64,000 nt of DNA from Escherichia phage TrudiRoth, in the sequence record MZ501109, one strand, 5' to 3'. How positions within the stretch are numbered: the first letter of the stretch is position 1; the number at the start of each line of letters is the position of its first letter. Below are positions 6,405-64,000 of the stretch, piece after piece. The notes beneath the pieces are model-generated. The model had not been told where the DNA came from. It did no database searches and saw only the letters and a list, made by a program, of their open reading frames with translations. The position numbers and the translations under genes are program-made.

Positions 6405-6433
6405 TTGCTAATCGCTACCAGATTTGCTATAAT
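6405..6433 (+). promoter_or_regulatory. sigma70-type early promoter
   Basis: -35 TTGCTA, 17 bp, -10 TATAAT upstream of the HNH gene at 6460. Confidence 0.55.
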
Positions 6434-6459
6434 ATCTCCATTAGTTAAGGAGATTAGTT

Positions 6460-8659: not shown

Positions 8660-9510
8660 AGCAATATATTGAAACTGGAAAACGTATTCTTGAAGAGGGT
8701 GTATGGGTAACGAATCCTAGAACAGGGGTTCGTTGCCTAACCATTATTGATGCAGACTTTACCTTTAACGTAGGAGCAGGAGAACTGCCGCTAGTAACTA
8801 CTCGTAAAGCATTTGCTAAACAAGCAATAATGGAAATGATCGGATATCTCCGTGGGTACGACTCAGCAGCACAATTCCGCGCTATTGGTGTTAATACATG
8901 GAATGCTAATGCAAATGAAAATATTGCCTGGCTAGGTAATCCATTCCGTAAAGGCGAGGATGATATGGGACGAGTCTATGGTGTTCAAGGACGTCATTGG
9001 ACTAATTCTGATGGTATGGTATTTGATCAGTTAGCCAAAGTCTATCATAATTTGAAAAGAGGGATTGACGATCGTGGAGAAATTTTAACTTTTTGGAACC
9101 CTGGGGAATTTCGTAAAGGATGCCTACGTCCGTGTATGCATACCCATCAATTCTCTATTTTAGGTGATACACTATACCTAAACTCTTTCCAGAGGTCTAA
9201 TGATTTCTTGCTGGGCCAAGTATTTAATATGGTGCAATGCTATGCACTTCTAGCTATTATGGCACAGATTACAGGTCTTAAGCCAGGTATTGCTCGTCAA
9301 AAGATTATTAATCTTCATATCTATGAAGATCAGTATAATGTTCTGATGGAGCACAAGCAATTCGATCGTGAACCTTTTGCACCTCCTACTTTAGAAATCA
9401 ATCCAAATATTAGAACTTTGGATGATGTATTAACGTGGGTAAGTAAGGATGATTTTACTGTTCGTGGCTATGAACACCATCCTGCTATTGCATATCCATT
9501 TACGGTGTAA
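8656..9510 (+). CDS. thyA: thymidylate synthase
   Basis: 284 aa, catalytic [10 protein letters not shown] (PCH) motif, no intron interruption visible. Confidence 0.85.
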
Positions 9511-24776: not shown

Positions 24777-25358
24777 ATGCACGGAATATCCTTACCCATT
24801 CCAGGGTTTGAGGAGTACTTAGTAAGTTTGGATGGGTTAGTATTTAGTATCAAATCAAACAAAATACTAACCCAAATAACCAGTAATTACGGATACTTAT
24901 CTATACGTCTCCATAAAAATGGTCAACAGAGAAATACCGGTGTACATAGGATTTTAGCATGTGCATTTAAGAAATTACCAAGTCTAGACTCTGAACTAGA
25001 AGTTGACCATATTAACACAGACATTACTTATTGGGGTCTTAATAACTTACAAGTGCTCACAAAAGAGCAGCATCTAGAAAAGACTTTAAAAGATAAAGGA
25101 TTTAGTAAACTAAACCATGATAATTGTTGTAAGGATTGTGGTAAAGCTATTTCTTTAAAAGCTGAAAAATGTCAGGAGTGCTCTTCACATAAACCAAAAG
25201 ATATCTCTATAACTAAAGAAATAATCGAGGTTACAGTAAGAGAGCTAGGCTGGTCAGGTGCAGGGAGAAAGTTAAGTTATTCAGATAATGGGTTGCGTAA
25301 AAGATACACTTCTTTAGGAGGCAATCCTAAAGAACTTAAAAAGTTAAAGGTACTATAG
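24777..25358 (+). CDS. HNH homing endonuclease (second family)
   Basis: N-terminal GFEEYLVSLDGLVFS, HNH core HRILACAF...VDHINTD...NL and C-terminal Cys cluster; sits inside the tRNA array. Confidence 0.65.
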   Translation: MHGISLPIPGFEEYLVSLDGLVFSIKSNKILTQITSNYGYLSIRLHKNGQQRNTGVHRILACAFKKLPSLDSELEVDHINTDITYWGLNNLQVLTKEQHLEKTLKDKGFSKLNHDNCCKDCGKAISLKAEKCQECSSHKPKDISITKEIIEVTVRELGWSGAGRKLSYSDNGLRKRYTSLGGNPKELKKLKVL

Positions 25359-28735: not shown

Positions 28736-29251
28736 ATGCTAACACAACAAGAATTAAAATCCGTGTTGTTATATAAACCAGATACTGGAGAGTTTTTCTG
28801 GAAATATAGATCTGATTTAGATAGTCAATGGAATAGTAAATATGCTGGAACTAGGGCAGGATTTATTAATGAACTAGGCTATTGGAAGATAACTCTAGGA
28901 AATACTAGCTGGTTAGCACATCGTCTAGCATTCTTATACATGACTGGGGAAATACCAGATCTAATTGACCACAAGGATCAAGATAAGTCCAATACTAAAT
29001 GGGATAACTTACGAATAGCCACTGTATCACAGAATCAGGCTAATGCTAAATTAAGGGTAGATAATACCTCTGGGTACAAAAATGTAACTTGGCATAAGCA
29101 AAGAAATAAGTGGAAAGTAGAAGTACGTAAAGATGGCAAACTCCATTATGGTGGACTTTTTACAGAACTAGATAAAGCTGTAAATAAAGCTAATAATCTT
29201 AGACGTGAGTTATTCGGGGAATTTGCAGTATATGAAGAGTTTATGGGGTAG
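28736..29251 (+). CDS. HNH homing endonuclease with AP2-like domain
   Basis: Shares AHRLAFLYMTGE, DHKDQDK, NLR and GYKNV motifs with 6460, 39902 and 42058. Confidence 0.7.
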   Translation: MLTQQELKSVLLYKPDTGEFFWKYRSDLDSQWNSKYAGTRAGFINELGYWKITLGNTSWLAHRLAFLYMTGEIPDLIDHKDQDKSNTKWDNLRIATVSQNQANAKLRVDNTSGYKNVTWHKQRNKWKVEVRKDGKLHYGGLFTELDKAVNKANNLRRELFGEFAVYEEFMG

Positions 29252-39905: not shown

Positions 39906-40429
39906 TTACCCAAGAAAGATTGAAGGAGCTTCTAGAGTACAATCCAGATACAGGGATATTTATATGGAAGAGCCGAAAGATAGATAGAAGTGGTTTTAAC
40001 AAGCAATTCGCAGGAAAAGTTGCTGGCAATCCTCAAAATAACGGTTATATCAATATTACTGTTGATTCCGAAGTTCATGGGGCACATAGATTAGCTTTTC
40101 TTTACATGGAAGGCTATATGCCTGCAAGGGTAGACCACGAAAACATGGTTAGGTCTGATAACAAATGGCTTAACCTACGAGAAGCTACAGTCTCTCAAAA
40201 TGGTGCTAATGCGTTAAAGTATTCTAACAATAGTTCTGGATATAAGAACGTATACTGGACAAAGAAAACGTGTAAATGGCAAGTACAGGTTATGAAAGAT
40301 GGTAAATCCTACTCGGGAGGATACTTCACAAACCTCAAAGATGCTGTAGAAACTGCCAATGAGTTAAGATTTGAATTATTTGGGGAATTTGCCCTATATG
40401 AACCATTTAAAGGAGATAAACATGAGTAA
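39902..40429 (+). CDS. HNH homing endonuclease with AP2-like domain
   Basis: AHRLAFLYMEGYMP, DHENMVRSDNKWLNLREAT and GYKNVYW; paralog of 6460, 28736 and 42058. Confidence 0.7.
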   Translation: MITQERLKELLEYNPDTGIFIWKSRKIDRSGFNKQFAGKVAGNPQNNGYINITVDSEVHGAHRLAFLYMEGYMPARVDHENMVRSDNKWLNLREATVSQNGANALKYSNNSSGYKNVYWTKKTCKWQVQVMKDGKSYSGGYFTNLKDAVETANELRFELFGEFALYEPFKGDKHE

Positions 40430-42058: not shown

Positions 42059-42570
42059 TGGCCGGTATTTCTCAGGAATACCTGAAGAGTAGACTAACCT
42101 ATAATCCTGAAACATGGGAGTTTCGGTGGAAGCCTAACCCAAATGCTAGTAAAACATGGAATACTAGGTTTGCTGGTAAAGAAGCAGGTACTCTAAATAA
42201 AACTACCGGATATATCAATTTAACAATTGATGGGGTTAAGCATGGTGCACATAGAATGGCTTTCTTATACATGGAGGGCTATTTACCTACTAAAGTGGAT
42301 CACAAAGATACAATAAGAACAAATAATGCTTGGAGTAACCTTAGGGCTGCTGATAATGCTCAGAATACTTGGAATGCTGGTATGAAAAGCTCCAATACTT
42401 CAGGATTTAAAGGTGTTTACTTAGATAAGCGTATAAATAAATATGTAGGTAGAGTTCGCTTTAGAGACAAAAGGTTCTCTACTAAATATTATGAAAATGC
42501 TGAGGATGCAGCTAAAGAGTTGGAAATCCTTAGAGAACAGTTACATAAAGAATTTGCGAGGAATGAATAA
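42058..42570 (+). CDS. HNH homing endonuclease with AP2-like domain
   Basis: AHRMAFLYMEGYLP, DHKDTIRTNNAWSNLR and GFKGVY. Confidence 0.7.
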   Translation: MAGISQEYLKSRLTYNPETWEFRWKPNPNASKTWNTRFAGKEAGTLNKTTGYINLTIDGVKHGAHRMAFLYMEGYLPTKVDHKDTIRTNNAWSNLRAADNAQNTWNAGMKSSNTSGFKGVYLDKRINKYVGRVRFRDKRFSTKYYENAEDAAKELEILREQLHKEFARNE

Positions 42571-43168
42571 TGCGTGTTAAATTCTGGTCGGATTTGCACT
42601 TAGACCACCCTGGAACTCTTCGCTTCCGTCCGTGGTTTAAGAATATGAAAGAACATGATGAATATATCCTAGATACTTTGTCCAAGCACATTGGCAAGCG
42701 TACTAAGCTCGTCTTGCTAGGGGATATTGCCGTGGGGCGTGAAGGGTTGGCTAAATTAAAGTCGGTTATCCACAATGTGCCTAACCAGTTAATCATGGGC
42801 AACCACGATGCTGAACGTCAGGGTCTGCATATTAAAGATCTTGTAGACGTTTATGATGATATTCAGGCTCTAGGTAAGCAAACAGGTGGTGGCAAGAAGT
42901 TTTGGCTGTCACACTGTCACACTGTCCATTGCACGAAGCAGAACTTCGTGGTAAGCTAAACATTCACGGACATGTGCACACCAATTCTGTGCGCGACCCA
43001 CGTTATATCAACATCTCTTTTGAGATGAGTAAGACTCCTATTCCTCTAGAAGATATTGTATCTGGCAAGTTCACAAGCTATGATAGAGTAGTTAACTGCA
43101 CTACTGGTGAAGTACTCCAAATCGATGAAGATGTGGCAGCAGTATTGAGGGGAGATATCAATGTTTGA
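42570..43168 (+). pseudogene. calcineurin-like metallophosphoesterase interrupted by an 8-bp tandem duplication
   Basis: Frame 1 (42570..42959) carries DLHLD, GDIAVG and GNHD; frame 2 (42902..43168) carries HGHVH; removing one GTCACACT copy at 42908-42923 fuses them into ...FWLSHCPLHEAELRGKLNIHGHVHT... Confidence 0.6.
42908..42923 (+). repeat. 8-bp tandem duplication GTCACACT x2 inside the metallophosphoesterase reading frame
   Basis: GTCACACTGTCACACTGTCC read directly; accounts for the +2 frame change. Confidence 0.85.
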
Positions 43169-49975: not shown

Positions 49976-50378
49976 AATCTCATAGATTAAAAACATCAAC
50001 TTGTTTTTACCTCTAGGCCGTAGATTTACATCATTCCTCGTAGGAAAACACTTGATGACGGTTCTGCTTGCAGGTTCTCGTCAATTGTTCTTCCTCCCCG
50101 AGACTCAGGAGGATGTATCAAATCGCGCGCGCCTAGAGGGGCTAACTCTCATGAAATGGGGGTATATTAACTTTTAAATAACTAAAAATATTTAAAGGCA
50201 ATATTTATGTTCAAGATGATACACCTGTTGCCGCTCATCTGCTAGGATGGCACAACACTTTCTTCTAGGCTCCTAAGTTTCTAGGAATAGTTAAGCACTA
50301 ACTCTAGAGTTTACACTAAACTTTAAATCTGTTTCTCACACATTCTAGGGCAGTTTCTCTCCAACGTTACATATCCTA

Positions 50379-50418
50379 GGGCGGTTTCCTATACAGGGCG
50401 GTTATAGGGAGGGCGGTT
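50379..50418. repeat. three close copies of GGGCGGTT
   Basis: Copies at 50379, 50396 and 50411, each preceded by TAGG/CAGG. Confidence 0.7.
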
Positions 50419-50462
50419 ATTTCTAGGAGACATTTTTTGAAAACACATTTCTGGAAATTACT

Positions 50463-51062
50463 GTCGGATTTGCACATTACATTTCTAGAAATTTATGGTC
50501 GGATTTGCACATTGATAGGAGTCTCCAAAGTTTTTAGGAACACTGAAAATAGCAGCATTATTTCGGGCCGAAGGCCCATATTTGCCTGAGTTTTTAGAGC
50601 CACAGGAATTTTCACTTGTCAAGCGATTTTGCCCCATTTTGCTAATAAAATTTCGCTTTATCTCCCCTAATCTCAATTCTAGCCAAAACATCCCGCATTA
50701 TCCTCAAAAATGCAGCAAACCGGTGCTAAAGCACCATCACCGCTGCTCCTTCCGTAGTTCCTCCCAAAATCTCATCGGATTCGCACTTCTCCCCAAACTC
50801 ACACAATCACACACCCTCTCATCGAAGTCACAAAAATCTTGTCGGATTTGCACACCTTAACACTTGTCGGATTTGCACATACTCTAGTAAACCCAGCTGG
50901 ATTGCATCGCAGTTGCGGATTGCTGGAGTTTTTAGGAAAATTCATTGTCGGATTTGCACACTATAAAAATTTTTCGGGTAGGATTTGCACATTACCAAAA
51001 ATTGTCGGATTCGCACATACACGCCAGCACGTAACCCATGGAGCAAATGTCGGATTTGCACA
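50463..51062. repeat. about nine dispersed direct copies of a GTCGGATTTGCACA-like 14-mer
   Basis: Exact copies at 50463, 50498, 50841, 50866, 50947 and 51049; variants at 50774 (ATCGGATTCGCAC), 50978 (GTAGGATTTGCACA) and 51004 (GTCGGATTCGCACA). Confidence 0.85.
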
Positions 51063-51090
51063 AAAGCGCAGGGCAATTTGCCCTGCCTGC

Positions 51091-51250
51091 CGAAATGCGA
51101 ATGATAATGAGAATGATTCGCATTTGAGAAGTTGAATGCGAATGAGAACAGTTATCATTTGACTACCGGAATACGAATGAGAATGATTTGCATTTAGGAA
51201 GGGAAACGCTAATAATAATGAGAATGACTCGCATTTACAAAGCGAAGTGA
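51091..51250. repeat. four degenerate tandem units of about 36-42 bp
   Basis: AATGAGAATGA cores at 51106, about 51141 (variant), 51175 and 51217, each followed by (T)CGCATTT. Confidence 0.75.
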
Positions 51251-51268
51251 GAAACACTGTTATTTAAG

Positions 51269-51351
51269 TTATCCACAGGTTTATTAACAGCACGATCTGA
51301 CTTGACAAAATCCTAGTGATTTTGAGGCGTTATCCACAGACTTATCAACAG
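51269..51351 (+). promoter_or_regulatory. two iteron-like 22-bp repeats each containing a consensus DnaA box
   Basis: TTATCCACAGGTTTATTAACAG at 51269 and TTATCCACAGACTTATCAACAG at 51330. Confidence 0.6.
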
Positions 51352-51360
51352 GTTATTCTA

Positions 51361-51378
51361 CTGTATATTTATACAGTA
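51361..51378. repeat. 18-bp near-palindrome CTGTATATTTATACAGTA, copy 1
   Basis: Identical 18-mer recurs at 55075-55092 on the other side of the - strand block. Confidence 0.8.
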
Positions 51379-51494
51379 TTCCTGCGTAGTGAATAACTCT
51401 AATATAGCTCTAAAACGCTCTCAAACGCGTTCTAACGCGTTTATTTTTGGGGGAGGTATTTTAATAAGGGGAAATTTGAGGAAGGCCAGAAAAG

Positions 51495-51518
51495 ACGGGG
51501 CCGATAGTTGCGCCCCGT
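51495..51518 (-). terminator. terminator closing the - strand block
   Basis: Stem ACGGGGC/GCCCCGU; on the - strand it is followed by CUUUUCU, directly downstream of ORF 51524..51718. Confidence 0.6.
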
Positions 51519-51523
51519 TATTA

Positions 51524-51718
51524 TTAGTCTGGTAGTCGATGTGTGATCTTTTCGCTTTCGCCGTAGGAGTCTACCAAATGTTGATAGTAACCATCGTTAT
51601 CATAAATCACTTTATCATAATCGCCACGCTCCACCGCTTGCCGATTTTCCAGCGTATCAGGCACAAAGAAAGTATCAACGGTAACAGTAGTTTTAGTTAC
51701 AACAATTTTATCACTCAT
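51524..51718 (-). CDS. hypothetical protein
   Basis: 64-aa ORF, last gene of the - strand block; terminator hairpin 51495-51518 follows. Confidence 0.4.
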   Translation of the reverse strand: MSDKIVVTKTTVTVDTFFVPDTLENRQAVERGDYDKVIYDNDGYYQHLVDSYGESEKITHRLPD

Positions 51719-51848
51719 AACGCCATTGCTCCTAGAATGAGAATGATTATCAATATCATTGTGAAGCCATTACCAAATCGTAAACGCTGGGAATGTTTCC
51801 CAGCGGTATTATTAGATTTATGGCTTTGTGTTTTTCGCCACCAGCTAT

Positions 51849-52061
51849 TCACGGTTTTAAATTCTCTATAGTTAATTTTGCGCGAATAGTGATTCCATAT
51901 AATTCGCCTCCCTTGTTTCTTACATCAGGTAGCCAGTCCCACAATTCATGGTATCCGCTTAAAATTCCTAGCGATGCAAGATTAGCAATAAAACCGGCTA
52001 TAGTAACCGCTTCCAGTGAAATAGTTACACGATTATTAATAACTAAAGTAAACTTTTTCAT
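51849..52061 (-). CDS. hypothetical protein
   Basis: 70-aa ORF. Confidence 0.4.
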   Translation of the reverse strand: MKKFTLVINNRVTISLEAVTIAGFIANLASLGILSGYHELWDWLPDVRNKGGELYGITIRAKLTIENLKP

Positions 52062-52402
52062 TGCGCCACCTTTCGAAACGCTGTTTCGATACTTTCAGCG
52101 GTTGATTGAATATACGCGCCTTTCATAATTAGACGCTCCGTACATACTTTGCGGAAAATGAAAATGAATTCATTTTCATTTTCCGCTATTAACGCTTCCC
52201 CCATAACCTGAACGTCACAAGACCCAAAAGTTAAAAATTGAAACGCTAGTTCACGGGCGACAACGGCAGAAATTTTATAATGTGCTTTGCCCTCATAGAT
52301 ATTAACCACGCCTTTATAAACAGGGGAAAGCTGATTTAAATAGTTTGCTAATAATGCCGGACGGCAATTAGTTACAAAGCGATTGCCCTCATAAATAACC
52401 AT
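52058..52402 (-). CDS. hypothetical protein
   Basis: 114-aa ORF. Confidence 0.45.
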   Translation of the reverse strand: MVIYEGNRFVTNCRPALLANYLNQLSPVYKGVVNIYEGKAHYKISAVVARELAFQFLTFGSCDVQVMGEALIAENENEFIFIFRKVCTERLIMKGAYIQSTAESIETAFRKVAQ

Positions 52403-52508
52403 TAAATGATCCTCGCATCACGGATAACCATAATCACTAGCGTGATCAACATTGCAGCACTAGACACGCCACAAACAAAAGTTAGCATTTTAACAATTGC
52501 CCCTTCCA

Positions 52509-52721
52509 TTATAACACCCCACGAAAAGCAGCGTAAAAAGTAGCAAAGTGTTTAACCGTTTCGGCTATCAAATTGCCGCGCTTGTCAAATTTCTTTTCTG
52601 TAACACGGAAAGCGTTTTTGTTGCGTGCTACATATTCTATTTTACAATCTGGACGCTCGAAGGTGTTAACATCCACCAGCTTAAAACCTTTAGAACGGGC
52701 AAGGGAAACATTTTTTAACAT
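52509..52721 (-). CDS. hypothetical protein
   Basis: 70-aa ORF. Confidence 0.4.
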   Translation of the reverse strand: MLKNVSLARSKGFKLVDVNTFERPDCKIEYVARNKNAFRVTEKKFDKRGNLIAETVKHFATFYAAFRGVL

Positions 52722-52919
52722 TTTTATTCCCCTTTACCAGTCATACAGCCCAACAAGTAAGAAAACCCCGCGATACCTGCTCCAATAATAACCACGTGAA
52801 CGCCGAAAGCTATTACAAACAGCGATAAAATAGCGCCCAAGATACTAGCCAGAATAGATCGAAAAATAACCATTTTATTAGCTCCTAGAAATTAGGGGAT
52901 AATATATCCCCTTTAATAA

Positions 52920-53147
52920 TTACATTAAAACAATTTTTACCGCTTGCTTTTTGGTGCAGTGGTTAGTTTTCAATTCATCCAACAAAAAGCCCGCCGTTTG
53001 CTGGTCAATCTTGTCATTGTCATAAAGTTCCTGAATGGTAACATAAGTTTTACCTATGCCGAACTCAGAAACCATAACGCTGACAATAGCGGGAACGGAT
53101 ACCCATTCCATACCGTTAAAAATTGCAGAAGATGATGAATGTACCAT
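52920..53147 (-). CDS. hypothetical protein
   Basis: 75-aa ORF. Confidence 0.4.
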   Translation of the reverse strand: MVHSSSSAIFNGMEWVSVPAIVSVMVSEFGIGKTYVTIQELYDNDKIDQQTAGFLLDELKTNHCTKKQAVKIVLM

Positions 53148-53254
53148 TTTAACGCCTCCTAGAAATCAGGGAAAATTTTCAATCCACCGTTTCGGTGTAA
53201 AGGCATTATAACAAAAAAGGCCACCATAATAGGCGACCTTTACAAAACTTTACA

Positions 53255-53776
53255 TTAGACTATTTCTAATGCTTCCACACCGAAACAGCGTTTTAGTTCT
53301 TTCTGTAAAACTGCATATTCATCCCAACGGGAATTATCAGGAATATAAACAAGCTGTTTTAATCGATTTGCATATAATAACGCCTTGTTACCAATTATTT
53401 CCGCGCCACCGTGTTTAATAATTAGTTTCATAACGGTATTAATAGGATCGCCGCCATTTACATAAGTACCGGACTTACTCAATTGATAATGATAAATACT
53501 CGCATATACATTATCATTTTCAATCCATTCCCCTGTTTCTTCATCTTCTTCCCCATCGCTACCGAAACGAGAAGCATTATCATATGCGTGTTCGTTTGCG
53601 AAAGCGTCCAGATCACAGCCAGCGGGAACAAAATGTTCCTCCGTCCAGCCCTCCCCGCAATAGCCAGTATGACAATCAACTAAAACGATCATATCGTGCT
53701 TAGCTTCATTCACACTTTCTAGTGAAAATCCATACTTGCAAACACTATCACGCTCAATAATTAATTTACTAAACAT
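53255..53776 (-). CDS. hypothetical protein
   Basis: 173 aa with central acidic stretch GSDGEEDEETGEW. Confidence 0.5.
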   Translation of the reverse strand: MFSKLIIERDSVCKYGFSLESVNEAKHDMIVLVDCHTGYCGEGWTEEHFVPAGCDLDAFANEHAYDNASRFGSDGEEDEETGEWIENDNVYASIYHYQLSKSGTYVNGGDPINTVMKLIIKHGGAEIIGNKALLYANRLKQLVYIPDNSRWDEYAVLQKELKRCFGVEALEIV

Positions 53777-53804
53777 AATTAGTCTCCTAACTAAAAGGGA
53801 AAGC

Positions 53805-53818
53805 GGGGATTATTCCCC
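53805..53818 (-). terminator. GGGGA-UUAU-UCCCC hairpin, member of a recurring motif
   Basis: Same motif as 57277-57294, in the sense orientation of the local genes, between - strand ORFs. Confidence 0.4.
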
Positions 53819-53829
53819 ACTAGTAATTA

Positions 53830-54825
53830 TTATTCACTTTCGGTGTTAGTGGTAAAGGTAGAAATGTCAATACCTTTTACCATTTCGTCGATCATTTCAG
53901 CAATATTGAAACTCTGTACCATTTCCAACATTGCCGCTTCCATTGCCGCGCCTGCTACCGCTTTCGCTTTCTGATTAGTCGGGGCGTACTGGTCAACTGC
54001 TACGCTTAACAGGTTAGCGATCACTATACGACCAATCGGCGTATCGATATAACCTTTAATCATAAACGGCGCTTTTTTCGCCGCTACTTTCGTGATTTGA
54101 GTTAATGCAATTTTACCCGCTTCCAGTTTTGCAGCATTTACAACAGCGGATTTATTAGCAGCAACGATAGAAGATACTTTAGTCATGATATTTCCTTTAT
54201 TTTCAGTAGTTTGCGCATTTGCGCTTGAAGTTTGAGAGTTTACAGCCTGTTTTGCTACGTTGTCAACTGGTTTTAGTGTAAATCCAGCGTTTGCAACGTT
54301 TGATTCATTCCCATACTCTAAATAATCGTTAGGGATCAACATGTTACCGCTAGCGCGTTCAAAACACAATACGCCAGTTGTTTCGATTGCGTCACTATCC
54401 GCACGTTTAATGGCGCTTGTCAATTCGCCCCAAATGCTAGACAGTAAATCTTCTACATCTCTGGAATTAATACCATTTACGCGAGTAGCGAAAACCATTT
54501 CTTTTTCTTGTACATTGTAACCACGGGCAATATAGCTTTTTTCGTCGTGACCTACAATGATAAAATCAATATCGCTTCCCCGCTGATTTCGTATGATGTG
54601 ATAGTCACGGTTGTAAAGCACTAGAACGCGGCTAGGGTCTAGTAATAGCGTGAAATCATCGACTGAATAATGAGTATCATTATTATCTAAAATATCATCG
54701 TGAATCTTTTCAACCATTGCCACCGTATGTTGTAGGCTTGCTGGACTTGATCCGTCTAGCAGGTTGCGCAAAATACCCTTAATAATAGTGGCGTTTGCTG
54801 GTACTGCAATTCTTACAGTAGACAT
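53830..54825 (-). CDS. hypothetical protein
   Basis: 331 aa, first and largest gene of the - strand block; Ala/Val/Asn-rich central region. Confidence 0.55.
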   Translation of the reverse strand: MSTVRIAVPANATIIKGILRNLLDGSSPASLQHTVAMVEKIHDDILDNNDTHYSVDDFTLLLDPSRVLVLYNRDYHIIRNQRGSDIDFIIVGHDEKSYIARGYNVQEKEMVFATRVNGINSRDVEDLLSSIWGELTSAIKRADSDAIETTGVLCFERASGNMLIPNDYLEYGNESNVANAGFTLKPVDNVAKQAVNSQTSSANAQTTENKGNIMTKVSSIVAANKSAVVNAAKLEAGKIALTQITKVAAKKAPFMIKGYIDTPIGRIVIANLLSVAVDQYAPTNQKAKAVAGAAMEAAMLEMVQSFNIAEMIDEMVKGIDISTFTTNTESE

Positions 54826-55074
54826 TTCTTTGTCTCCCTCGTTAATCGGTGAGTGAATGATATAGATAATTGTTCGCTATGGGCAAGAAAAAAGAAAAGG
54901 TTTTTTATTCCTTGCCTAACGCTTGTTTTTATGATACCCGCGTGTTTTCTATTTCTAGCTCTCTGTAAGCGTACACAAGGCTTTATTATAATAAGGGTAG
55001 CAGTGAGAAAACGCCGTGTAGCGTGTTCTAGACCTCTTAAATTTGATTGCGGTTGTTACTGCTACCATTCTACC

Positions 55075-55092
55075 CTGTATATTTATACAGTA
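55075..55092. repeat. 18-bp near-palindrome CTGTATATTTATACAGTA, copy 2
   Basis: Identical to 51361-51378. Confidence 0.8.
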
Positions 55093-55112
55093 GGATAACC
55101 TGTATATAAGTC

Positions 55113-55170
55113 TGTGGATAAGTCGCCAAATCGTCGCCTATTACGTCAAGTTATTTTGTGCTGTGGATAA
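55113..55170 (-). promoter_or_regulatory. two consensus DnaA boxes in inverted orientation
   Basis: TGTGGATAA at 55113-55121 and 55162-55170; an 8/9 box AGTGGATAA at 55447-55455. Confidence 0.6.
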
Positions 55171-55831
55171 CTTTGGGGATAAGTTAAATGATAGTGGTTC
55201 TCACTTAGCCCGATAGTTTCTCATAGTTATTATTTCTCTTTAATTTATAAGTATATTATATAATATGAAATAGTTAGTTGGCTAATAGGTTTTTAGAGTA
55301 TTAATAGTCTGCTAATAATAACGCATGTTACAATCCACCAGCGTGATTATCATCCTAGCGACTATTAGCGTGCTAATGACCTGATACACGTCCAGACTTA
55401 TTTGTCAATGAAAAATAATAGCAGAAAATACTTTTTTGAAAAATCAAGTGGATAACTCATTAAATTTCATTTTTGCTTTTTGTATAAGTTATTAACAGGG
55501 TCTAAAACGCTCTGTAACGCATTCTAAGCGCCTCAAAGGAAAAGATAGGCAATCATAAGGAGTACACCGAGAAAACCTCACCACTAGCGAAATAAGTTTT
55601 GTCAAGTACCCCAAAGCAGATATAAATGAAAAAATTACTTGCTAAAATGGTTGTTTTGATGTTATTCGCGCGCCCGTTTCATTTAATTTTAGGCAGTCGC
55701 TGGACGTGGTGCGGTGGCGTTTGTCCTTACGTTTCTTTACAAAAATAAGGTTGCGCCCTTCTCGGTATTCTCCTATTATTTATCACGTAGGGCGGCAATG
55801 ACGAACTACACGGCGGAGAAGTTTACCACCG

Positions 55832-55870
55832 CGCTCTTTAAAAACTAGGGAACATCTTAAAGCCTATCGG
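55832..55870. repeat. left arm of a ~40-bp inverted repeat
   Basis: CGCTCTTTAAAAACTAGGGAACATCTTAAAGCCTATCGG; its reverse complement occurs at 56277-56315 with one mismatch. Confidence 0.85.
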
Positions 55871-55903
55871 CGGTAAACTTATATAATATAAGGAATCGAC
55901 GAT

Positions 55904-56062
55904 ATGACAACAATATTTAACGATCATCCAGCTACCCACGACACGATCGAAAAAATCGAACAATGGGTAAAGACTGCAAATGAATACTATGCTAATCATT
56001 CGGAAGCGGTAATAATCTGCAATGATGGGAATGGTTTATATGCTTTGGAGGATCTCAAATGA
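55904..56062 (+). CDS. small hypothetical protein
   Basis: 52-aa ORF translated by hand; RBS AAGGAA; stop overlaps the next start (ATGA). Confidence 0.35.
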   Translation: MTTIFNDHPATHDTIEKIEQWVKTANEYYANHSEAVIICNDGNGLYALEDLK

Positions 56063-56268
56063 AACAAACGCTTTTGATCACTGGCAAGCCTATCAAGTCA
56101 CTTGATAGCAGAACAAAAAATTTGTTGATAGTAGCGCAAAAATCGGTAAAATACCGATTCAAGCAGTACAAGAAAGGAAGGCAGCAAGGTCTGGAAATGG
56201 TGTGGCGTAATATAATGATTGATTTATATAACTCCCATCAAATCGAAAAAAGTTTAAAAAACGCTTGA
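56059..56268 (+). CDS. small basic protein
   Basis: 69-aa ORF coupled to the previous one; the pair is flanked by a ~40-bp inverted repeat. Confidence 0.4.
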   Translation: MKQTLLITGKPIKSLDSRTKNLLIVAQKSVKYRFKQYKKGRQQGLEMVWRNIMIDLYNSHQIEKSLKNA

Positions 56269-56276
56269 TACGCTAG

Positions 56277-56315
56277 CCGATAGGTTTTAAGATGTTCCCT
56301 AGTTTTTAAAGAGCG
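56277..56315. repeat. right arm of a ~40-bp inverted repeat
   Basis: CCGATAGGTTTTAAGATGTTCCCTAGTTTTTAAAGAGCG. Confidence 0.85.
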
Positions 56316-56499
56316 ATAACTTGATAAAATTTGACGGTCGGCACTTACCATAATGTGCCCCGCCCCCTAACTGGGATATAGCGGCCCGCGTGGAGTTCTT
56401 TAAATTTATTATACTGGCGAGCGGATTATAATCTAATAGCGTTTCAACGTATCGAGGCGCTATTGTGGAATAATCCCCCAATAAACCGGAGTATTAAAA

Positions 56500-56751
56500 A
56501 TGCAAAACGTTATTACCGCGCCGAAAGTAGGTCAATCTGTTTTCATTCCTTTTGTAACTAAAACGGATGAATTAACCGGAAAAGCCGAACGTATTAAAGG
56601 TGTGGCGCTTGATCCTTTCGATAAAATCGAAGCGGTATACGCGGAAACGGAACGGAGTAACAACGGCAAGCCAATTTATAACGTTCGCGTTAAATCCGGC
56701 GACGTTGTAAAGATCATTCAGAAAGATGATAAATGGCAAGCTATTAGCTAA
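56500..56751 (+). CDS. hypothetical protein
   Basis: 83-aa ORF with RBS; hairpin follows. Confidence 0.45.
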   Translation: MQNVITAPKVGQSVFIPFVTKTDELTGKAERIKGVALDPFDKIEAVYAETERSNNGKPIYNVRVKSGDVVKIIQKDDKWQAIS

Positions 56752-60147: not shown

Positions 60148-60882
60148 ATGAATCAAGTTAATATGAATATTACCCGCGCTTTCCCGCATATTTCCCGCGT
60201 TATGATTTGGGATTTAGACGGGACAATCATTAATTCAATGCACCGTGTAGCGCCTTGTTTTGATGATAACGGAAATTTAAATTTAAATAAGTATTCCCGC
60301 GAAGCCTGCAAACATGATTTAATTATGCAGGATTCTTTATTGCCGTTGGTTGAATATATGCGCCAATGTATGAATGATGCAAATACTTTAAATATTATTT
60401 GTACCGCGCGCCTTATGTCTAAAAGCGATTACTTTTATTTGCGTAAACAAGGCTTGCGAGGGCGCGGAAATAGCAATATCCGCGTATTCTCCCGCGATAC
60501 ATTACACAAATACTTTGAAGCGGATAAGGTTAGCGAAATATACCACAGCAAAGACGCTGTATACAAAAGCTATTACTTTGAACTATTTAAACAGCTATAT
60601 CCGAACGCTGATTTTACGATGATTGATGATCATAAAGGCGTATTATCGGCGGCGGCAAGTGCTGGATTTAAAACGTTGGATGCTCAAGCCGTTAACGATA
60701 TCCTATCAATCGGCGTAACATTGATCGGTGAAACCTTTATTGATGAATCGCTTGATGATGATAACGATTATCAATTCCTAGCCGAACGTTTAAAAATGTG
60801 TTGGGAAGGTATGACCGAGGAAGAACGCGCGGAATATAGTACCACTCCGCAACAATTCATTGATAAATTAAAAGTTGCCTAA
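60148..60882 (+). CDS. dmp: 5'-deoxynucleotidase (HAD family)
   Basis: HAD motif I WDLDGTI; 244 aa; terminator follows. Confidence 0.7.
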   Translation: MNQVNMNITRAFPHISRVMIWDLDGTIINSMHRVAPCFDDNGNLNLNKYSREACKHDLIMQDSLLPLVEYMRQCMNDANTLNIICTARLMSKSDYFYLRKQGLRGRGNSNIRVFSRDTLHKYFEADKVSEIYHSKDAVYKSYYFELFKQLYPNADFTMIDDHKGVLSAAASAGFKTLDAQAVNDILSIGVTLIGETFIDESLDDDNDYQFLAERLKMCWEGMTEEERAEYSTTPQQFIDKLKVA

Positions 60883-60897
60883 CAATTAAAAATAAAA

Positions 60898-60935
60898 TAG
60901 TCACACTGTGTAATGATAACATGGTGTGACTATTA
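60898..60935 (+). terminator. terminator-like hairpin after dmp
   Basis: 9-bp stem UAGUCACAC/GUGUGACUA followed by UUAGCUU. Confidence 0.55.
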
Positions 60936-61045
60936 GCTTGCTAAGTACCGGGGCGGTAATGAGACTCATTCTCATCTAGGGAACCTCTGGGCACACCTTC
61001 ATGTGTAATCTTATGAGATTTCGAGAATTGGTAATTAGCGCTAAC

Positions 61046-61291
61046 TTAGGAGGAACACCGGTCTACCGGCTTGTATCCTGATTCTGACATACGAAATCTC
61101 CTCCGCGATGCCCGAGATCCATCCGACCACTCTCGCTCAAACTCCTCCCGTTTCTCCGCAAACTTCCGCTCCCTTTCCGAAAGCTCCCGCGATACTCCCG
61201 CAATATATTCACGATGCTTATTAATCGCCCCGAGTGTTCCGAAGATTCCCGCAAGCACCCCGATAATGAAGATAGCCACAAAACTAAACAT
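61046..61291 (-). CDS. small membrane protein
   Basis: 81 aa with N-terminal TM segment then Arg/Glu-rich tail. Confidence 0.3.
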   Translation of the reverse strand: MFSFVAIFIIGVLAGIFGTLGAINKHREYIAGVSRELSERERKFAEKREEFEREWSDGSRASRRRFRMSESGYKPVDRCSS

Positions 61292-61394
61292 TACTTGTCT
61301 CCCCGCAGCTTACGTTCGATACGAGCTAAGTGGTTATCTAAGATGCACTGTCCGATAATTACCACAACTAGTAAAGCAATAATTACTACTTCCA

Positions 61395-61580
61395 TTATAA
61401 CCACCCCGCCATAGCTGCTAACCAAAAGAGTACAAAGATAAAGAATAACACAGTCCCGAATCCGAAACTATTTATCCAACTTTCGTACACTTCCCCGCGT
61501 CTGTTCTTTCTTCTGTTGTCGTCTGACATCTCTTTGCTTCTCCTGTAGTCTTGGTATTTGGAATACCCTAGCAATTGCAC
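61395..61580 (-). CDS. small membrane protein
   Basis: 61 aa with C-terminal TM segment. Confidence 0.3.
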   Translation of the reverse strand: MQLLGYSKYQDYRRSKEMSDDNRRKNRRGEVYESWINSFGFGTVLFFIFVLFWLAAMAGWL

Positions 61581-61858
61581 GAACCATTATGACTGTCCCG
61601 ATAAGATCCATTACTTCATCAAAGCCGGATTCTTCTAGTAAGAAGGATGTTCCCATCACGTCTTCTATTGTATCTTCTATGACGTCTTGAATGATTTCAT
61701 CAATTGCATCATGTATTGCTTTTTATTCCTGGGATTTATTTCAAAGTTAACAGGTTCCTGAAAGGACTTTTCTTCATCTTGCATTGTGTTTGCTACCTGT
61801 ACCTCATCCCAGAAATAAAAATTTTTGTTTACTTCGAGATCTTTTTACTTTATACTAA

Positions 61859-62125
61859 TTACAAGTGACCAGATTGTTCTAGTTTAAATTTGCAATCACC
61901 ATATTTGAGATCAAACTGTGACAAATCCCACCACCCAAACTTAGTGCGTAACTGAGTTTTAGGGAATCGGTAGCCCACAGTACGTGCTTCTCGAATATCT
62001 AAAGCGTAGTGTTCTTCACCAACATGACCATAAGACTTCACATATGCCTTACAAAATGGCTCGGGAGCTGGCACACAACCCGTCAACACTACTGCTGCAA
62101 CTACGATGGCTAGTAACTTTTTCAT
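61859..62125 (-). CDS. llp: Llp-like lipoprotein (receptor-blocking, superinfection exclusion)
   Basis: Signal peptide with lipobox LTGC; divergent from and adjacent to the receptor-binding-protein gene. Confidence 0.6.
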   Translation of the reverse strand: MKKLLAIVVAAVVLTGCVPAPEPFCKAYVKSYGHVGEEHYALDIREARTVGYRFPKTQLRTKFGWWDLSQFDLKYGDCKFKLEQSGHL

Positions 62126-62208
62126 AATCGTTCCTCTGTTTAATTTATAAATATATTATAGCAAAATAGAGGGATCTAAGCAAATACATTTTTAAAGAAG
62201 GAGATTGT

Positions 62209-63990
62209 ATGAGTTTTTTCGCAGGAAAATTTAGTGATGGTAAAACTGTATTATCTCTAAACGCTGCTAATGGTGGTGATATAAATCAGCACTACTCTCC
62301 AAATACTAATAGTATCTTCCACTCAGATATGCCATTTGTCCTAGTTGATGGGACTTATGAAGCAGCCCTAGGTAACGCAGGTAATGGATACTTTGTTACT
62401 CAGATGCCTTGGGATATTATAAATATTAAATCCAATGATCCGGGTAGAGTTATATTAACTGCTATTGAGATAAACGGTACTCATCGTGGATTTCTGAATG
62501 GTACTCAATCTCAGGTTGGCCAGTTCTTATCATTCTTTGAAGACCCACCACGTGCTGGTGCTGAATTATCTGTAACATCTGCTTTTGCGATCGGTGATAG
62601 TTTAGCTCATGGTACTTATATCTATAATGGTGGTCTTGGTCATGAGGAATCTATTGCTAGGCAAGGTTCTGGAGGCAGTTTACTACAGTCCTCTGGTTTC
62701 CAGATCTTTAGACCTGGTGGTGTTTCTGCTGGTGAAGCCATTGCCAGAGCCTGGAGTCTTATGGGTTTTCCAACTGGTGTCTCTACTGTTCCTTTAGATG
62801 GTGGTAACGCAGATTATTGGGAACCTAACTGGCAGGCGCCTATTGGTTCTGCTGGTAGAGGCCATGATTGGTTTTATGTTTGTAGTTCTAATATTCGTGG
62901 CTTCGCAGGTAAAAAAGGCGTACTACCAGATAACGTAAACGTTCTTTACCAATCTCCTGCATACCCAGAAAAAATATATGTTTGTAGAGGTTCTACTTCT
63001 AATATGGCTGCTCAGTCTGCTAGAAAGGTATATGTACAGGACTGGTATAACGTTACGCCAACTAAGGTTATTTGGTATGTGCTAAATCTGCGCTATTCTA
63101 ATGGTAGTATGGGAGTTTCTGGTAATCCATTTACCGGTTCAGATATCCTAATATCTCCGTCTAATTTTACTATTAAAGGTGTTAGCCTACCAAATACAGG
63201 CTATAAATTTATTAACCAGAATGCTTTCGGAAACTTAGGCTATCGCCCTGATATGGAGTATGTTGGTAATAACGCTGCGTATACCGGAGTTTTTGGTGAT
63301 AATACTGCACGATGTGAATTTATCGGCTCTAGTAATGGCGGGTTGTGGTCTCCTGTTAACTATGGGGGTGCAGCTTCTCAAATTAGCTTATATAAATTTG
63401 GTATAGGTAAACAATGGTATGTAGATACTAATACCAACTCCATTGGTAATGAACATGGACCTGTGTGGAGTCCTAGTACTGTACCCCTCAGGTTATTCCC
63501 AGGCAACGTTGCAAGTACTTATGTAGGGGACGATATAACTCCATCCTACCCTGGTGCTGGTGACTTCTACACACCTTTGGCCACAGTTTGGTTGGGATTA
63601 CCAAATGCTCACTCTACTGTTATATTAACTACTGAAGTTATTATGGGTAATCTTAATACTGCTGGAATGCCTGTGCGTACTTACGGCGGTAGCGCTTGGC
63701 AGGTACAAGGTAGACGTCAACAAAGTTATACAGCTGGTGATGGTGTATTCCACCAGATTCTTACTCTGCCACCTGGATATCTAGTACCTTATCACAGTAC
63801 AACTTCCTATAGTTATATACAGACTTGGGCTAGTAGGCCTGATGAGTTTGCTTTCCGTAGGAACGGATATATTTATACTATTAAAAACCTTGGTAATGGC
63901 AACGTTGAGTTGGGTGTTATCATTCACGCTGCAGAAGCGGCAGCTGTTTTCTTGCCAAGACTACGTGTAACAGTTCAACGCCTAACCTAA
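62209..63990 (+). CDS. oad: receptor-binding tail protein (pb5-like)
   Basis: 593 aa, Gly/Asn/Ser/Thr-rich, paired with the llp-like lipoprotein as in T5 oad-llp. Confidence 0.6.
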   Translation: MSFFAGKFSDGKTVLSLNAANGGDINQHYSPNTNSIFHSDMPFVLVDGTYEAALGNAGNGYFVTQMPWDIINIKSNDPGRVILTAIEINGTHRGFLNGTQSQVGQFLSFFEDPPRAGAELSVTSAFAIGDSLAHGTYIYNGGLGHEESIARQGSGGSLLQSSGFQIFRPGGVSAGEAIARAWSLMGFPTGVSTVPLDGGNADYWEPNWQAPIGSAGRGHDWFYVCSSNIRGFAGKKGVLPDNVNVLYQSPAYPEKIYVCRGSTSNMAAQSARKVYVQDWYNVTPTKVIWYVLNLRYSNGSMGVSGNPFTGSDILISPSNFTIKGVSLPNTGYKFINQNAFGNLGYRPDMEYVGNNAAYTGVFGDNTARCEFIGSSNGGLWSPVNYGGAASQISLYKFGIGKQWYVDTNTNSIGNEHGPVWSPSTVPLRLFPGNVASTYVGDDITPSYPGAGDFYTPLATVWLGLPNAHSTVILTTEVIMGNLNTAGMPVRTYGGSAWQVQGRRQQSYTAGDGVFHQILTLPPGYLVPYHSTTSYSYIQTWASRPDEFAFRRNGYIYTIKNLGNGNVELGVIIHAAEAAAVFLPRLRVTVQRLT

Positions 63991-64000
63991 AGGAGGATAT

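What the first reader, a model, noticed from the sequence alone, without database searches (positions are those of the whole stretch)
51524..54825. Seven-gene - strand block of unknown function bracketed by DnaA-box clusters in the pre-early-like region
Seven co-oriented ORFs (64 to 331 aa, plus a 49-aa hydrophobic ORF at 52724-52873) lie between the repeat region and the A2/A1/dmp genes. None carries a motif I can name. Their composition is visibly richer in G+C than the early region. The block is bracketed by matching signals: two DnaA-box iterons at 51269-51351 and two inverted DnaA boxes at 55113-55170, an identical 18-mer at 51361 and 55075, and a CTAAAACGCTCT..AACGC.TTCTAA motif at 51410 and 55501. 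In T5-like phages the first DNA to enter carries host-takeover and anti-restriction functions, so uncharacterised genes here are plausible anti-defence or host-shutoff factors.
Basis: partly seen in the sequence, partly recalled or inferred. Interest (0 to 1): 0.75.

Follow-up and report, generated by a model that had tools for sequence, protein, structure and literature searches.

The report
Known T5-type pre-early accessory operon
This block is the well-known second operon of the first DNA that T5-like phages inject; related phages carry the same genes, and in phage T5 some are toxic to the host and all can be deleted, so the finding is real but ordinary.

Summary
The window is almost certainly Escherichia phage TrudiRoth (Bas30, an Epseptimavirus): the proteins looked up by exact sequence are its bas30_0182, 0183 and 0187-0189. 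The block at 51524-54825 matches T5 genes T5.011-T5.017 of the first-step-transfer (FST) terminal repeat. Six ORFs have T5 counterparts in the same order: 011 57%, 012 69%, 013 62%, 014 94%, 015 89%, 017 80% identity. The operon promoter and its terminators are also conserved. Two genes are accessory: the 173-aa gene (phrog_6741, 337 phage records) and a 70-aa gene (65 records).

In T5, published work shows that 011, 013 and 015 are toxic. T5.015 is an Ung-dependent nickase of abasic sites, and hegG-017 can be deleted.

The DnaA-box bracket is real. It consists of four box pairs 3 bp apart with 52-bp spacers. It is exactly Davison's published IRC-spacer-IRD and IRD'-spacer-IRC' repeats of the injection-stop region.

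The higher-G+C claim fails: 0.394 in the block and 0.394 in the whole window. No evidence supports an anti-restriction role. Structure prediction of the 331-aa and 173-aa proteins found no known fold.

Side result: RefSeq and PHROGs attach the nickase name to the 70-aa T5.014 family. The literature and UniProt point to the 114-aa T5.015 family, here 52058-52402.

The parts
54857..54886 (-). Sigma-70 promoter of the operon (TTGCCC, 18 nt, TATCAT)
   Evidence: Promoter scan. It aligns with the promoter annotated in T5 at 6411-6489 upstream of T5.011, with an identical leader and ribosome-binding site. That T5 promoter was characterised experimentally according to the Fig. 1 legend of Annor et al..
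53830..54825 (-). 331-aa DUF7566 protein, orthologue of T5.011 (bas30_0189)
   Evidence: Pfam PF24450, 447 bits. 57% identical to T5.011 overall: 38% over residues 1-190 and 94% over 207-331. 100% identical to TrudiRoth bas30_0189. T5.011 is toxic and disturbs the nucleoid.
53802..53821 (-). Intrinsic terminator-like hairpin after the 331-aa gene
   Evidence: Terminator scan. Folding energy -13 kcal/mol, z = -3.75. T5 has an annotated terminator at the same place, 7534-7559.
53255..53776 (-). 173-aa acidic accessory protein (phrog_6741, bas30_0188); no T5 counterpart
53216..53241 (-). Intrinsic terminator-like hairpin after the 173-aa gene
   Evidence: Terminator scan. Folding energy -15.1 kcal/mol, z = -4.87.
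52920..53147 (-). 75-aa orthologue of T5.012 (bas30_0187)
   Evidence: 69% identical to T5.012. phrog_5145. Exact match to bas30_0187.
52724..52873 (-). 49-aa hydrophobic orthologue of T5.013
   Evidence: 62% identical to T5.013; it lacks the 11-residue loop between the two hydrophobic segments. GRAVY 1.69. T5.013 is toxic and causes lysis in one study.
52509..52721 (-). 70-aa basic orthologue of T5.014; RefSeq and PHROGs name this family the Ung-dependent endonuclease, probably in error
   Evidence: 94% identical to T5.014. pI 10.1. phrog_4227. The same T5 protein is called 'ORF015' in another T5 record. T5.014 was not toxic in either screen.
52402..52509 (-). 35-aa hydrophobic small ORF; possible gene
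   Evidence: ORF list. GRAVY 1.59 and a weak ribosome-binding site. SmurfNell annotates a CDS at the corresponding position. No family hit.
52058..52402 (-). 114-aa orthologue of T5.015, the Ung-dependent nickase of abasic sites (bas30_0183)
   Evidence: 89% identical over the full length, with all six lysines conserved. UniRef names it 'DNA-(apurinic or apyrimidinic site) endonuclease'. Function shown for T5.015 in PMC8201957. Present in 435 phage records.
51849..52061 (-). 70-aa rare accessory ORF (bas30_0182), at the position of T5.016
   Evidence: No T5 or EPS7 match; 99% identical in SmurfNell. Only 65 phage records. No family hit.
51715..51852 (-). 45-aa ORF; doubtful gene
   Evidence: GTG start and no ribosome-binding site. 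The sequence is conserved in EPS7 and SmurfNell and annotated as a CDS in SmurfNell.
51524..51718 (-). 64-aa acidic orthologue of T5.017
   Evidence: 80% identical to T5.017. phrog_6973.
51488..51518 (-). Intrinsic terminator at the end of the operon
   Evidence: Stem ACGGGGC/GCCCCGU followed by CUUUUCU; -16 kcal/mol, z = -2.44. It sits where T5 has an annotated terminator, 9275-9296, after T5.017.
51250..51378 (.). Repeat arm on the injection-stop side (Davison's IRD'-spacer-IRC'): two DnaA-box pairs 3 bp apart, 52-bp spacer
   Evidence: 89% identical to the T5 arm over 98 nt. Described in bioRxiv 10.1101/866236.
55073..55201 (.). Repeat arm on the promoter side (Davison's IRC-spacer-IRD), inverted: two DnaA-box pairs, 52-bp spacer
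   Evidence: Conserved in EPS7 and SmurfNell and aligned with T5 6022-6152.
51410..51435 (+). CTAAAACGCTCT..AACGC.TTCTAA motif, copy 1; overlaps a hairpin followed by a T-run
   Evidence: Pattern search. Terminator scan at 51423-51442. Fold -13.3 kcal/mol, z = -2.25.
55502..55527 (+). Same motif, copy 2 (direct repeat), in the conserved non-coding region upstream of the plus-strand pre-early genes
   Evidence: Near-identical in EPS7 and SmurfNell.

Best explanation
The block is the second, oppositely transcribed pre-early operon of the first-step-transfer (FST) DNA of a T5-like phage, probably Bas30/TrudiRoth. It corresponds to T5 genes T5.011-T5.017.

Inferred from T5: the FST DNA enters the cell first. 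Host sigma-70 RNA polymerase then transcribes the operon from the conserved promoter at 54857-54886. Transcription passes two internal hairpins that look like terminators and stops at the terminator at 51488-51518.

The products are non-essential host-takeover accessory proteins:
- A DUF7566 protein with a variable N-terminal domain and a nearly invariant helical C-terminus. Its T5 orthologue 011 is toxic and disorganises the nucleoid.
- A small double-hydrophobic-segment protein. Its T5 orthologue 013 damages the membrane.
- The 114-aa orthologue of T5.015, which binds host uracil-DNA glycosylase (Ung) and nicks the abasic sites Ung makes in dUMP-containing host DNA, arresting replication and division.
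- Small proteins of unknown role (orthologues of 012, 014 and 017).
- Two accessory genes absent from T5, of 173 aa and 70 aa.

The flanking DnaA-box clusters are the two arms of the conserved IRC-spacer-IRD / IRD'-spacer-IRC' inverted repeat of the injection-stop region. They are a feature of the FST DNA as a whole, not a marker of this gene block. How they act is unproven; DnaA binding at the membrane is Davison's hypothesis.

Shown here: orthology, synteny, transcription signals and repeat anatomy. Taken from the T5 literature: timing of expression, toxicity, nickase activity and dispensability.
For: Identity of the phage:
- 526 phage records match the region, with best hits among Epseptimavirus genomes.
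- The protein sequences are exact matches to TrudiRoth bas30_0182, 0183, 0187, 0188 and 0189.

Synteny and orthology with T5:
- The T5 map shows T5.011-T5.017 between two repeat regions and next to the injection stop signal.
- The EPS7 and SmurfNell maps show the same order.
- Identities to T5 are 57, 69, 62, 94, 89 and 80% for 011-015 and 017.
- The flanking genes 009, hdi, 007, A2, 005, A1, 002 and dmp lie on the other side in T5 order.

Families: DUF7566 and six PHROG families.

Transcription signals:
- The promoter and leader align with the T5 promoter upstream of 011.
- Hairpins follow the 331-aa gene, the 173-aa gene and the 64-aa gene.

Repeat anatomy:
- Four DnaA/DnaA*-box pairs 3 bp apart, with the same 61-bp pair-to-pair distance on both sides.
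- The same layout occurs in EPS7, and in T5 on the injection-stop side.
- This matches Davison's description.

Function in T5:
- 008, 011 and 015 are toxic, and T5.015 is an Ung-dependent nickase (PMC8201957).
- 011, 013 and 015 are toxic, and deletion of hegG-017 is viable with smaller plaques.
- Pre-early genes are transcribed, and ten pre-early products were detected, in Bas33 (PMC13250531).
Against: - No experiment has been done on this phage's own proteins. The 331-aa protein is only 38% identical to T5.011 in its N-terminal domain, so its target may differ.
- The 114-aa protein carries a private substitution (D/N81 to F) inside a 36-bp palindrome. Its effect on activity is unknown.
- Five to seven products (173 aa, 75 aa, both 70-aa proteins, 64 aa, and the 35- and 45-aa ORFs) have no assigned function. 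'Host takeover' for them rests on position only.
- The window holds one copy of the region, so its terminal-repeat status could not be checked.
- Whether the two internal hairpins terminate transcription is not known.
Confidence: 0.88

Rival explanations
1. At least part of the block, chiefly the variable 173-aa and 70-aa genes and perhaps the orthologues of 012, 014 and 017, is anti-defence cargo. These products would inhibit host nucleases or other immune systems (RecBCD, restriction, abortive-infection systems) during the pause between the two transfer steps.
For: - The T5 FST region is credited with RecBCD protection and restriction insensitivity whose genes are still unidentified.
- Gene content between the repeats varies. 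The 173-aa gene is in 337 records and the 70-aa gene in 65, against about 440 records with a close A1.
- The 173-aa protein is strongly acidic, net charge -15.
- It gives a confident model with no known fold, and it is followed by a terminator-like hairpin, like an inserted cassette.
- Annor et al. note that the dispensable genes may matter in hosts carrying defence systems.
Against: - No similarity to any named anti-restriction or other characterised family in Pfam, PHROGs, NCBIfam or the PDB. PADLOC, which covers defence systems rather than anti-defence proteins, also gave nothing.
- Epseptimaviruses, including the BASEL isolates, are sensitive to restriction-modification.
- The conserved genes are shared by the restriction-resistant and the restriction-sensitive genus, so they cannot explain the difference.
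- Known anti-defence genes of the T5 family lie in the tRNA-rich early region.
- The phenotypes actually observed for the orthologues are host toxicity, not counter-defence.
Confidence: 0.2
2. The inverted DnaA-box repeats make the 3.7-kb segment a discrete element: a replication origin, an invertible segment, or a mobile cassette exchanged as a unit.
For: - Roughly 130-nt inverted arms flank the block.
- The perfect DnaA-box 9-mer is enriched: 5 found against 0.75 expected.
- The distance between the arms varies from 1851 to 4258 bp among T5-like phages.
- The arms are better conserved (89% to T5) than several of the proteins they enclose.
Against: - Orientation and gene order are the same in T5, EPS7, SmurfNell and the window.
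- No recombinase or transposase is present.
- The arms are only 70% identical to each other.
- Some T5-like phages have only one arm.
Confidence: 0.04
3. The small ORFs are chance reading frames and only the 331-aa and 173-aa genes are real.
For: Several are under 80 aa and have no Pfam hit. The 45-aa ORF has a GTG start and no ribosome-binding site.
Against: - The 75-, 49-, 70-, 114- and 64-aa ORFs each match a PHROG family at E values from 1e-31 to 1e-63.
- They keep 62-94% protein identity to T5, while the N-terminal half of the 331-aa gene has drifted to 38%.
- They have ribosome-binding sites.
- The T5 versions of 013 and 015 give phenotypes.
Confidence: 0.03

Closest known systems
Phage T5 pre-early genes T5.011-T5.017 (NC_005859, 6495-9157), in the first-step-transfer terminal repeat
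   Same: Same position between the two repeat regions, same orientation relative to A1/A2/dmp, and same gene order. Orthologues of 011, 012, 013, 014, 015 and 017 at 57-94% identity. Conserved promoter, leader and terminators.
   Different: The window has a 173-aa gene between the 011 and 012 orthologues, and a different 70-aa gene where T5 has T5.016. hegG and T5.003 are absent from this FST region. The N-terminal domain of the 011 orthologue is only 38% identical. The 013 orthologue lacks an 11-residue loop.
Epseptimavirus EPS7 genes AGC_0007-AGC_0015 and the equivalent SmurfNell genes
   Same: 85-100% protein identity for most genes, including the 173-aa family. Near-identical non-coding control regions.
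   Different: EPS7 and SmurfNell have an extra ~102-aa gene between the 011 orthologue and the 173-aa family gene that the window lacks. EPS7 lacks the window's 70-aa ORF at 51849-52061. Their 173-aa homologues are annotated as 164 aa with a later start.
T5.015, the Ung-dependent nickase of abasic sites (Mahata et al. 2021, PMC8201957)
   Same: The 114-aa ORF at 52058-52402 has the same length, is 89% identical and keeps all six lysines.
   Different: Activity has not been tested for this protein. It has a private F81 (N in T5, D in EPS7) created by a 36-bp perfect palindrome.
IRC-spacer-IRD / IRD'-spacer-IRC' repeats with eight DnaA or DnaA* boxes in the T5 injection-stop region (Davison 2020, bioRxiv 10.1101/866236)
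   Same: Four box pairs separated by 3 bp, 52-bp spacers and inverted orientation of the two arms. One arm lies next to the repeat-rich injection-stop region, the other between the divergent pre-early promoters.
   Different: None in architecture. The window has all eight boxes, whereas T5 has seven.

Membership tests
T5-type second pre-early operon (T5.011-T5.017) of the FST DNA | Lies between Repeat Region 2 (IRC-spacer-IRD) and Repeat Region 3 (IRD'-spacer-IRC', injection stop signal), and is transcribed away from the A2/A1/dmp operon | tested here: met
   Repeat arms at 55073-55201 and 51250-51378 flank the minus-strand ORFs. The 009, hdi, 007, A2, A1 and dmp orthologues lie on the plus strand beyond.
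T5-type second pre-early operon (T5.011-T5.017) of the FST DNA | Orthologues of the T5 genes in the same order | tested here: met
   011, 012, 013, 014, 015 and 017 at 57, 69, 62, 94, 89 and 80% identity, colinear. T5.016 is absent, as in most relatives (Annor et al.).
T5-type second pre-early operon (T5.011-T5.017) of the FST DNA | Conserved promoter upstream of 011 and terminators after 011 and 017 | tested here: met
   T5 annotation.
T5-type second pre-early operon (T5.011-T5.017) of the FST DNA | Located in the terminal direct repeat and expressed before second-step transfer | not testable with these tools
   Only one copy of the region is in the window, and no expression data exist for this phage. 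Pre-early transcription has been shown for the relative Bas33.
Ung-dependent AP-site nickase (T5.015 family) | Full-length sequence orthology to T5.015 (114 aa) | tested here: met
   89% identity over 114 of 114 residues, lysines at 30, 39, 43, 85, 94 and 111 conserved. UniRef uses the same name for bas30_0183.
Ung-dependent AP-site nickase (T5.015 family) | Binds Ung, cleaves abasic sites, and is toxic only when ung is present | not testable with these tools
   These are biochemical and genetic properties shown only for T5.015.
Pfam DUF7566 (PF24450) | Score above the curated cut-off over the full model | tested here: met
   446.9 bits against a cut-off of 27, model positions 1-336 of 336.
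DNA N-6-adenine methyltransferase (the UniRef label on homologues of the 331-aa protein) | A recognisable methyltransferase domain | tested here: not met
   Pfam gives only DUF7566. NCBIfam gives nothing. No PDB match by profile or by fold. The label seems to spread from a single record, STG2.
DnaA-box repeat architecture of the T5 injection-stop region | Eight DnaA or DnaA* boxes in four pairs 3 bp apart, 52-bp spacers, two inverted ~131-bp units | tested here: met
   Pairs start at 51269 and 51330 on the plus strand and at 55182 and 55121 on the minus strand. The spacers 51278-51329 and 55122-55173 are each 52 bp.
DnaA-box repeat architecture of the T5 injection-stop region | Binding of host DnaA and a role in halting DNA transfer | not testable with these tools
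   This is a hypothesis in Davison 2020, and later papers say experimental tests are lacking.
Named anti-restriction or anti-defence protein families | Sequence or fold similarity to a characterised inhibitor | tested here: not met

The most novel reading that the evidence does not exclude
The 173-aa acidic protein (53255-53776, phrog_6741) may be a new kind of early inhibitor of a host protein, for example a mimic or decoy acting on a nuclease or a defence sensor.

What is known about it:
- It belongs to a small, phage-only family. Only 31 cluster representatives at 50% identity were found among 1.8 billion proteins.
- Its predicted fold has no counterpart among solved structures.
- About half of the family has a CxxC...CxxC zinc-ribbon insert where this protein has an acidic loop.
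- It is absent from T5 and therefore missing from both published T5 screens.
- It is followed by a terminator-like hairpin, like a separately acquired cassette.

The evidence does not exclude this reading, and it does not support it beyond position and charge.
Probability: 0.12. Interest if true: 0.5.

Novelty: already known. Interest (0 to 1): 0.15.

Why it matters
As a discovery it matters little. The operon, its transcription signals and the DnaA-box repeats around it are documented for T5 and its relatives. The T5 orthologues have been screened for toxicity, and the T5 block has been deleted as a whole.

Two practical points remain:
- Automatic annotation (RefSeq names, and PHROGs as used by phage annotation pipelines) puts the Ung-dependent endonuclease label on the 70-aa T5.014 family. 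The experiments and UniProt point to the neighbouring 114-aa T5.015 family. Anyone cloning 'the nickase' from these annotations would take the wrong gene.
- The 173-aa family is common in Epseptimavirus genomes but absent from T5. It has never been tested and has no recognisable fold, so it is the one gene in the block where an expression or defence-panel experiment could yield something new.

Tried and rejected
- Pfam, PHROGs, NCBIfam and PADLOC scans of all ORFs. They gave only DUF7566 and unnamed PHROG families, plus the disputed phrog_4227 label.
- PDB sequence searches: profile searches for the 331-aa and 173-aa families and single-sequence searches for four small proteins. Nothing reached significance.
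- The afdb50 fold library was not available.
- Exhaustive profile search with the 173-aa family. It found only 31 phage-type representatives, whose only domain hits were zinc ribbons in the insert.
- Rfam scan of 50000-56500: no RNA family.
- The NARP3 paper on Bas30 concerns genes 0086 and 0087, not this block. The Rad anti-retron gene maps to the tRNA-rich region, not here.
- I could not get the supplement of Mahata et al. to read the T5.015 protein sequence directly. Davison's 2015 review is not in the library.
- Exact search for the 36-bp palindrome in IMG/VR: no match.
- Ideas considered and rejected: replication origin, invertible or mobile cassette, methyltransferase, and chance ORFs (see the rival explanations and membership test).

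Full report
**1. What the window is**

Megablast of 51200-55700 finds 526 phage records, all T5-like. The best are Epseptimavirus genomes at 92-94% identity. Exact protein look-ups match Escherichia phage TrudiRoth (Bas30 of the BASEL collection): the 331-aa protein is 100% identical to bas30_0189, and the 173-, 75-, 114- and 70-aa proteins are bas30_0188, 0187, 0183 and 0182. The source genome itself seems to be missing from the DNA collection searched, which explains the 94% ceiling.

**2. The ORFs are real and the block has a name**

The annotated T5 reference (NC_005859) shows the same layout in its left terminal repeat. T5.011-T5.017 are transcribed away from the dmp/A1/A2 operon and end at the injection stop signal.

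Protein comparison with T5:

| Window ORF | T5 gene | Identity |
|---|---|---|
| 331 aa | T5.011 | 57% |
| 75 aa | T5.012 | 69% |
| 49 aa | T5.013 | 62% |
| 70 aa (52509-52721) | T5.014 | 94% |
| 114 aa | T5.015 | 89% |
| 64 aa | T5.017 | 80% |

These are all colinear. The 173-aa ORF and the 70-aa ORF at 51849-52061 have no T5 counterpart.

On the other side of the block, the orthologues of T5.009, hdi, 007, A2, 005, A1, 002 and dmp follow in T5 order. EPS7 and SmurfNell show the same map, with an extra ~102-aa gene that the window lacks.

**3. Transcription signals**

A TTGCCC-18-TATCAT promoter at 54886-54857 aligns with the promoter annotated upstream of T5.011, and the leader and ribosome-binding site are identical. 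Annor et al. list that T5 promoter as experimentally characterised.

Stable hairpins followed by T-runs lie:
- after the 331-aa gene, at 53821-53802, where T5 also has an annotated terminator;
- after the 173-aa gene, at 53241-53216;
- after the last gene, at 51518-51488, matching the T5 terminator after T5.017.

**4. The bracket**

The perfect DnaA box TTATCCACA occurs five times in the window against 0.75 expected, and four of the five flank the block. The looser consensus is not enriched.

Each flanking box is half of a pair separated by 3 bp. The pair-to-pair distance is 61 bp on both sides, which leaves 52-bp spacers. The two ~130-nt units are inverted relative to each other.

This is exactly what Davison described for 25 T5-like phages: IRC-spacer-IRD in Repeat Region 2 and IRD'-spacer-IRC' in Repeat Region 3, with eight DnaA or DnaA* boxes in pairs 3 bp apart, an invariant 52-bp spacer, and a variable, poorly conserved coding region of 1.9-4.3 kb in between.

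The window's arm on the injection-stop side is 89% identical to the T5 arm. That is more conserved than several of the enclosed proteins. EPS7 shows the same pairs at the same places.

The second motif (51410 and 55502) is a direct repeat in conserved non-coding DNA. The first copy overlaps a hairpin.

Whether DnaA binds these sites is untested.

**5. The G+C claim**

The block has 0.394 G+C, the same as the whole window. Only a local stretch at about 48-50 kb and the adjacent intergenic DNA are lower.

**6. What the genes do, from the T5 literature**

- Mahata et al. cloned 13 T5 pre-early genes, including 011-017. They found 008, 011 and 015 toxic. They showed that T5.015 binds Ung and nicks the abasic sites it creates, arresting replication and division.
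- Annor et al. used NC_005859 numbering. They found 011 (nucleoid disorganisation), 013 (lysis; two transmembrane segments) and 015 toxic. A T5 mutant lacking hegG-017, in a background that also lacks dmp, 002, 003, 005 and 007, is viable and makes smaller plaques. Genes 011-015 and 017 are present in more than 75% of Markadamsvirinae genomes, and 016 in fewer than 15% of the Demerecviridae genomes analysed.
- Pre-early transcripts and proteins have been detected in the relative Bas33.

My own counts agree. The 114-aa gene is in 435 records, against about 440 with A1 at 80% identity or more. The 173-aa gene is in 337 and the variable 70-aa gene in only 65.

**7. The two larger proteins**

**8. 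The anti-defence idea**

No ORF resembles a named inhibitor. Epseptimaviruses are sensitive to restriction-modification, unlike Tequintavirus. The conserved genes are shared by both genera. The anti-defence genes identified so far in the T5 family lie in the tRNA-rich region. The idea survives only as a possibility for the untested accessory genes.

**9. Annotation conflict**

RefSeq and phrog_4227 call the 70-aa T5.014 family 'endonuclease nicking abasic sites generated by host uracil glycosylase Ung'. UniRef calls the 114-aa T5.015 family 'DNA-(apurinic or apyrimidinic site) endonuclease'.

The 70-aa T5 protein is named 'ORF015' in another T5 record, which is a likely source of the mix-up.

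Both experimental papers use T5.0xx locus tags. Annor et al. state that they use NC_005859 numbering, and they find 015 toxic and 014 not. So the nickase orthologue here is 52058-52402, not 52509-52721. I could not read the sequence in the supplement of Mahata et al., so this is a strong inference rather than proof.

**10. Verdict**

This is a known operon in a published phage.

Noticed in passing
window 52509-52721 versus 52058-52402: Public annotation disagrees on which gene is the Ung-dependent AP-site nickase. RefSeq and PHROG phrog_4227 name the 70-aa T5.014 family, while UniProt/UniRef and the experimental papers (T5.0xx locus tags; 015 toxic, 014 not) point to the 114-aa T5.015 family. 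The 70-aa T5 protein is called 'ORF015' in another T5 record, which probably caused an off-by-one transfer.
   Followed up: yes
window 52151-52186: A perfect 36-bp palindrome with an EcoRI site at its centre lies inside the T5.015-orthologue coding sequence (AENENEFIFIFR). It is by far the longest perfect palindrome in the window; the next is 20 bp. EPS7 and SmurfNell are 30/36 self-complementary (each base compared with its reverse-complement partner) and T5 is 20/36. The three substitutions relative to EPS7 all perfect the palindrome, which looks like a template-switch (quasi-palindrome correction) mutation, and they change residue 81 from D/N to F. The exact protein is seen only in TrudiRoth, and the 36-mer has no match in IMG/VR.
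   Followed up: partly
window 53830-54825 and its homologues: Many UniRef entries call DUF7566 homologues 'DNA N-6-adenine methyltransferase'. One 48-aa T5.013 homologue carries the same label. No methyltransferase domain is detectable. The name seems to have spread from single phage records such as STG2.
   Followed up: partly
window 53255-53776 (family phrog_6741): Roughly half of the distant family members have a CxxC...CxxC zinc-ribbon insert exactly where the window protein has an acidic loop (DGEEDEETGE). Most close relatives are annotated as 164 aa with a later start, and the window's first 12 residues model with pLDDT below 50.
   Followed up: partly
window 42766-42774: A fifth perfect DnaA box (TTATCCACA, plus strand) lies about 8.5 kb outside the FST region, in the early-gene part of the window.
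   Followed up: no
window 55441-55449: A further DnaA-like box (TTATCCACT on the minus strand) lies in the conserved non-coding region between the repeat arm and the plus-strand pre-early genes. It is identical in EPS7 and SmurfNell and pairs as an inverted repeat with 51267-51285.
   Followed up: no
window 53189-53211 and 53264-53286: A 23-nt inverted repeat (83% complementary) flanks the terminator hairpin between the 173-aa gene and the T5.012 orthologue. One arm lies inside the 3' end of the 173-aa gene.
   Followed up: no
window 60880-64000: The window continues about 3.1 kb beyond dmp, which in T5 lies about 120 bp from the genome end. There is also a strand and skew switch near 60.8-61.8 kb. 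The record therefore probably carries a single, collapsed copy of the terminal repeat joined to the other end of the unique region.
   Followed up: no
window 24882-25076, 28832-29050, 40010-40258, 42121-42375: Four weak matches (27-35% identity) to the T5 HNH endonuclease HegG lie in the early region, suggesting several homing-endonuclease genes there. No hegG copy lies in this phage's FST region.
   Followed up: no
One is a 35-aa hydrophobic ORF with a weak ribosome-binding site between the T5.014 and T5.015 orthologues. The other is a 45-aa very basic ORF with a GTG start and no ribosome-binding site. SmurfNell annotates CDSs at both positions, and neither has a family hit.
   Followed up: partly
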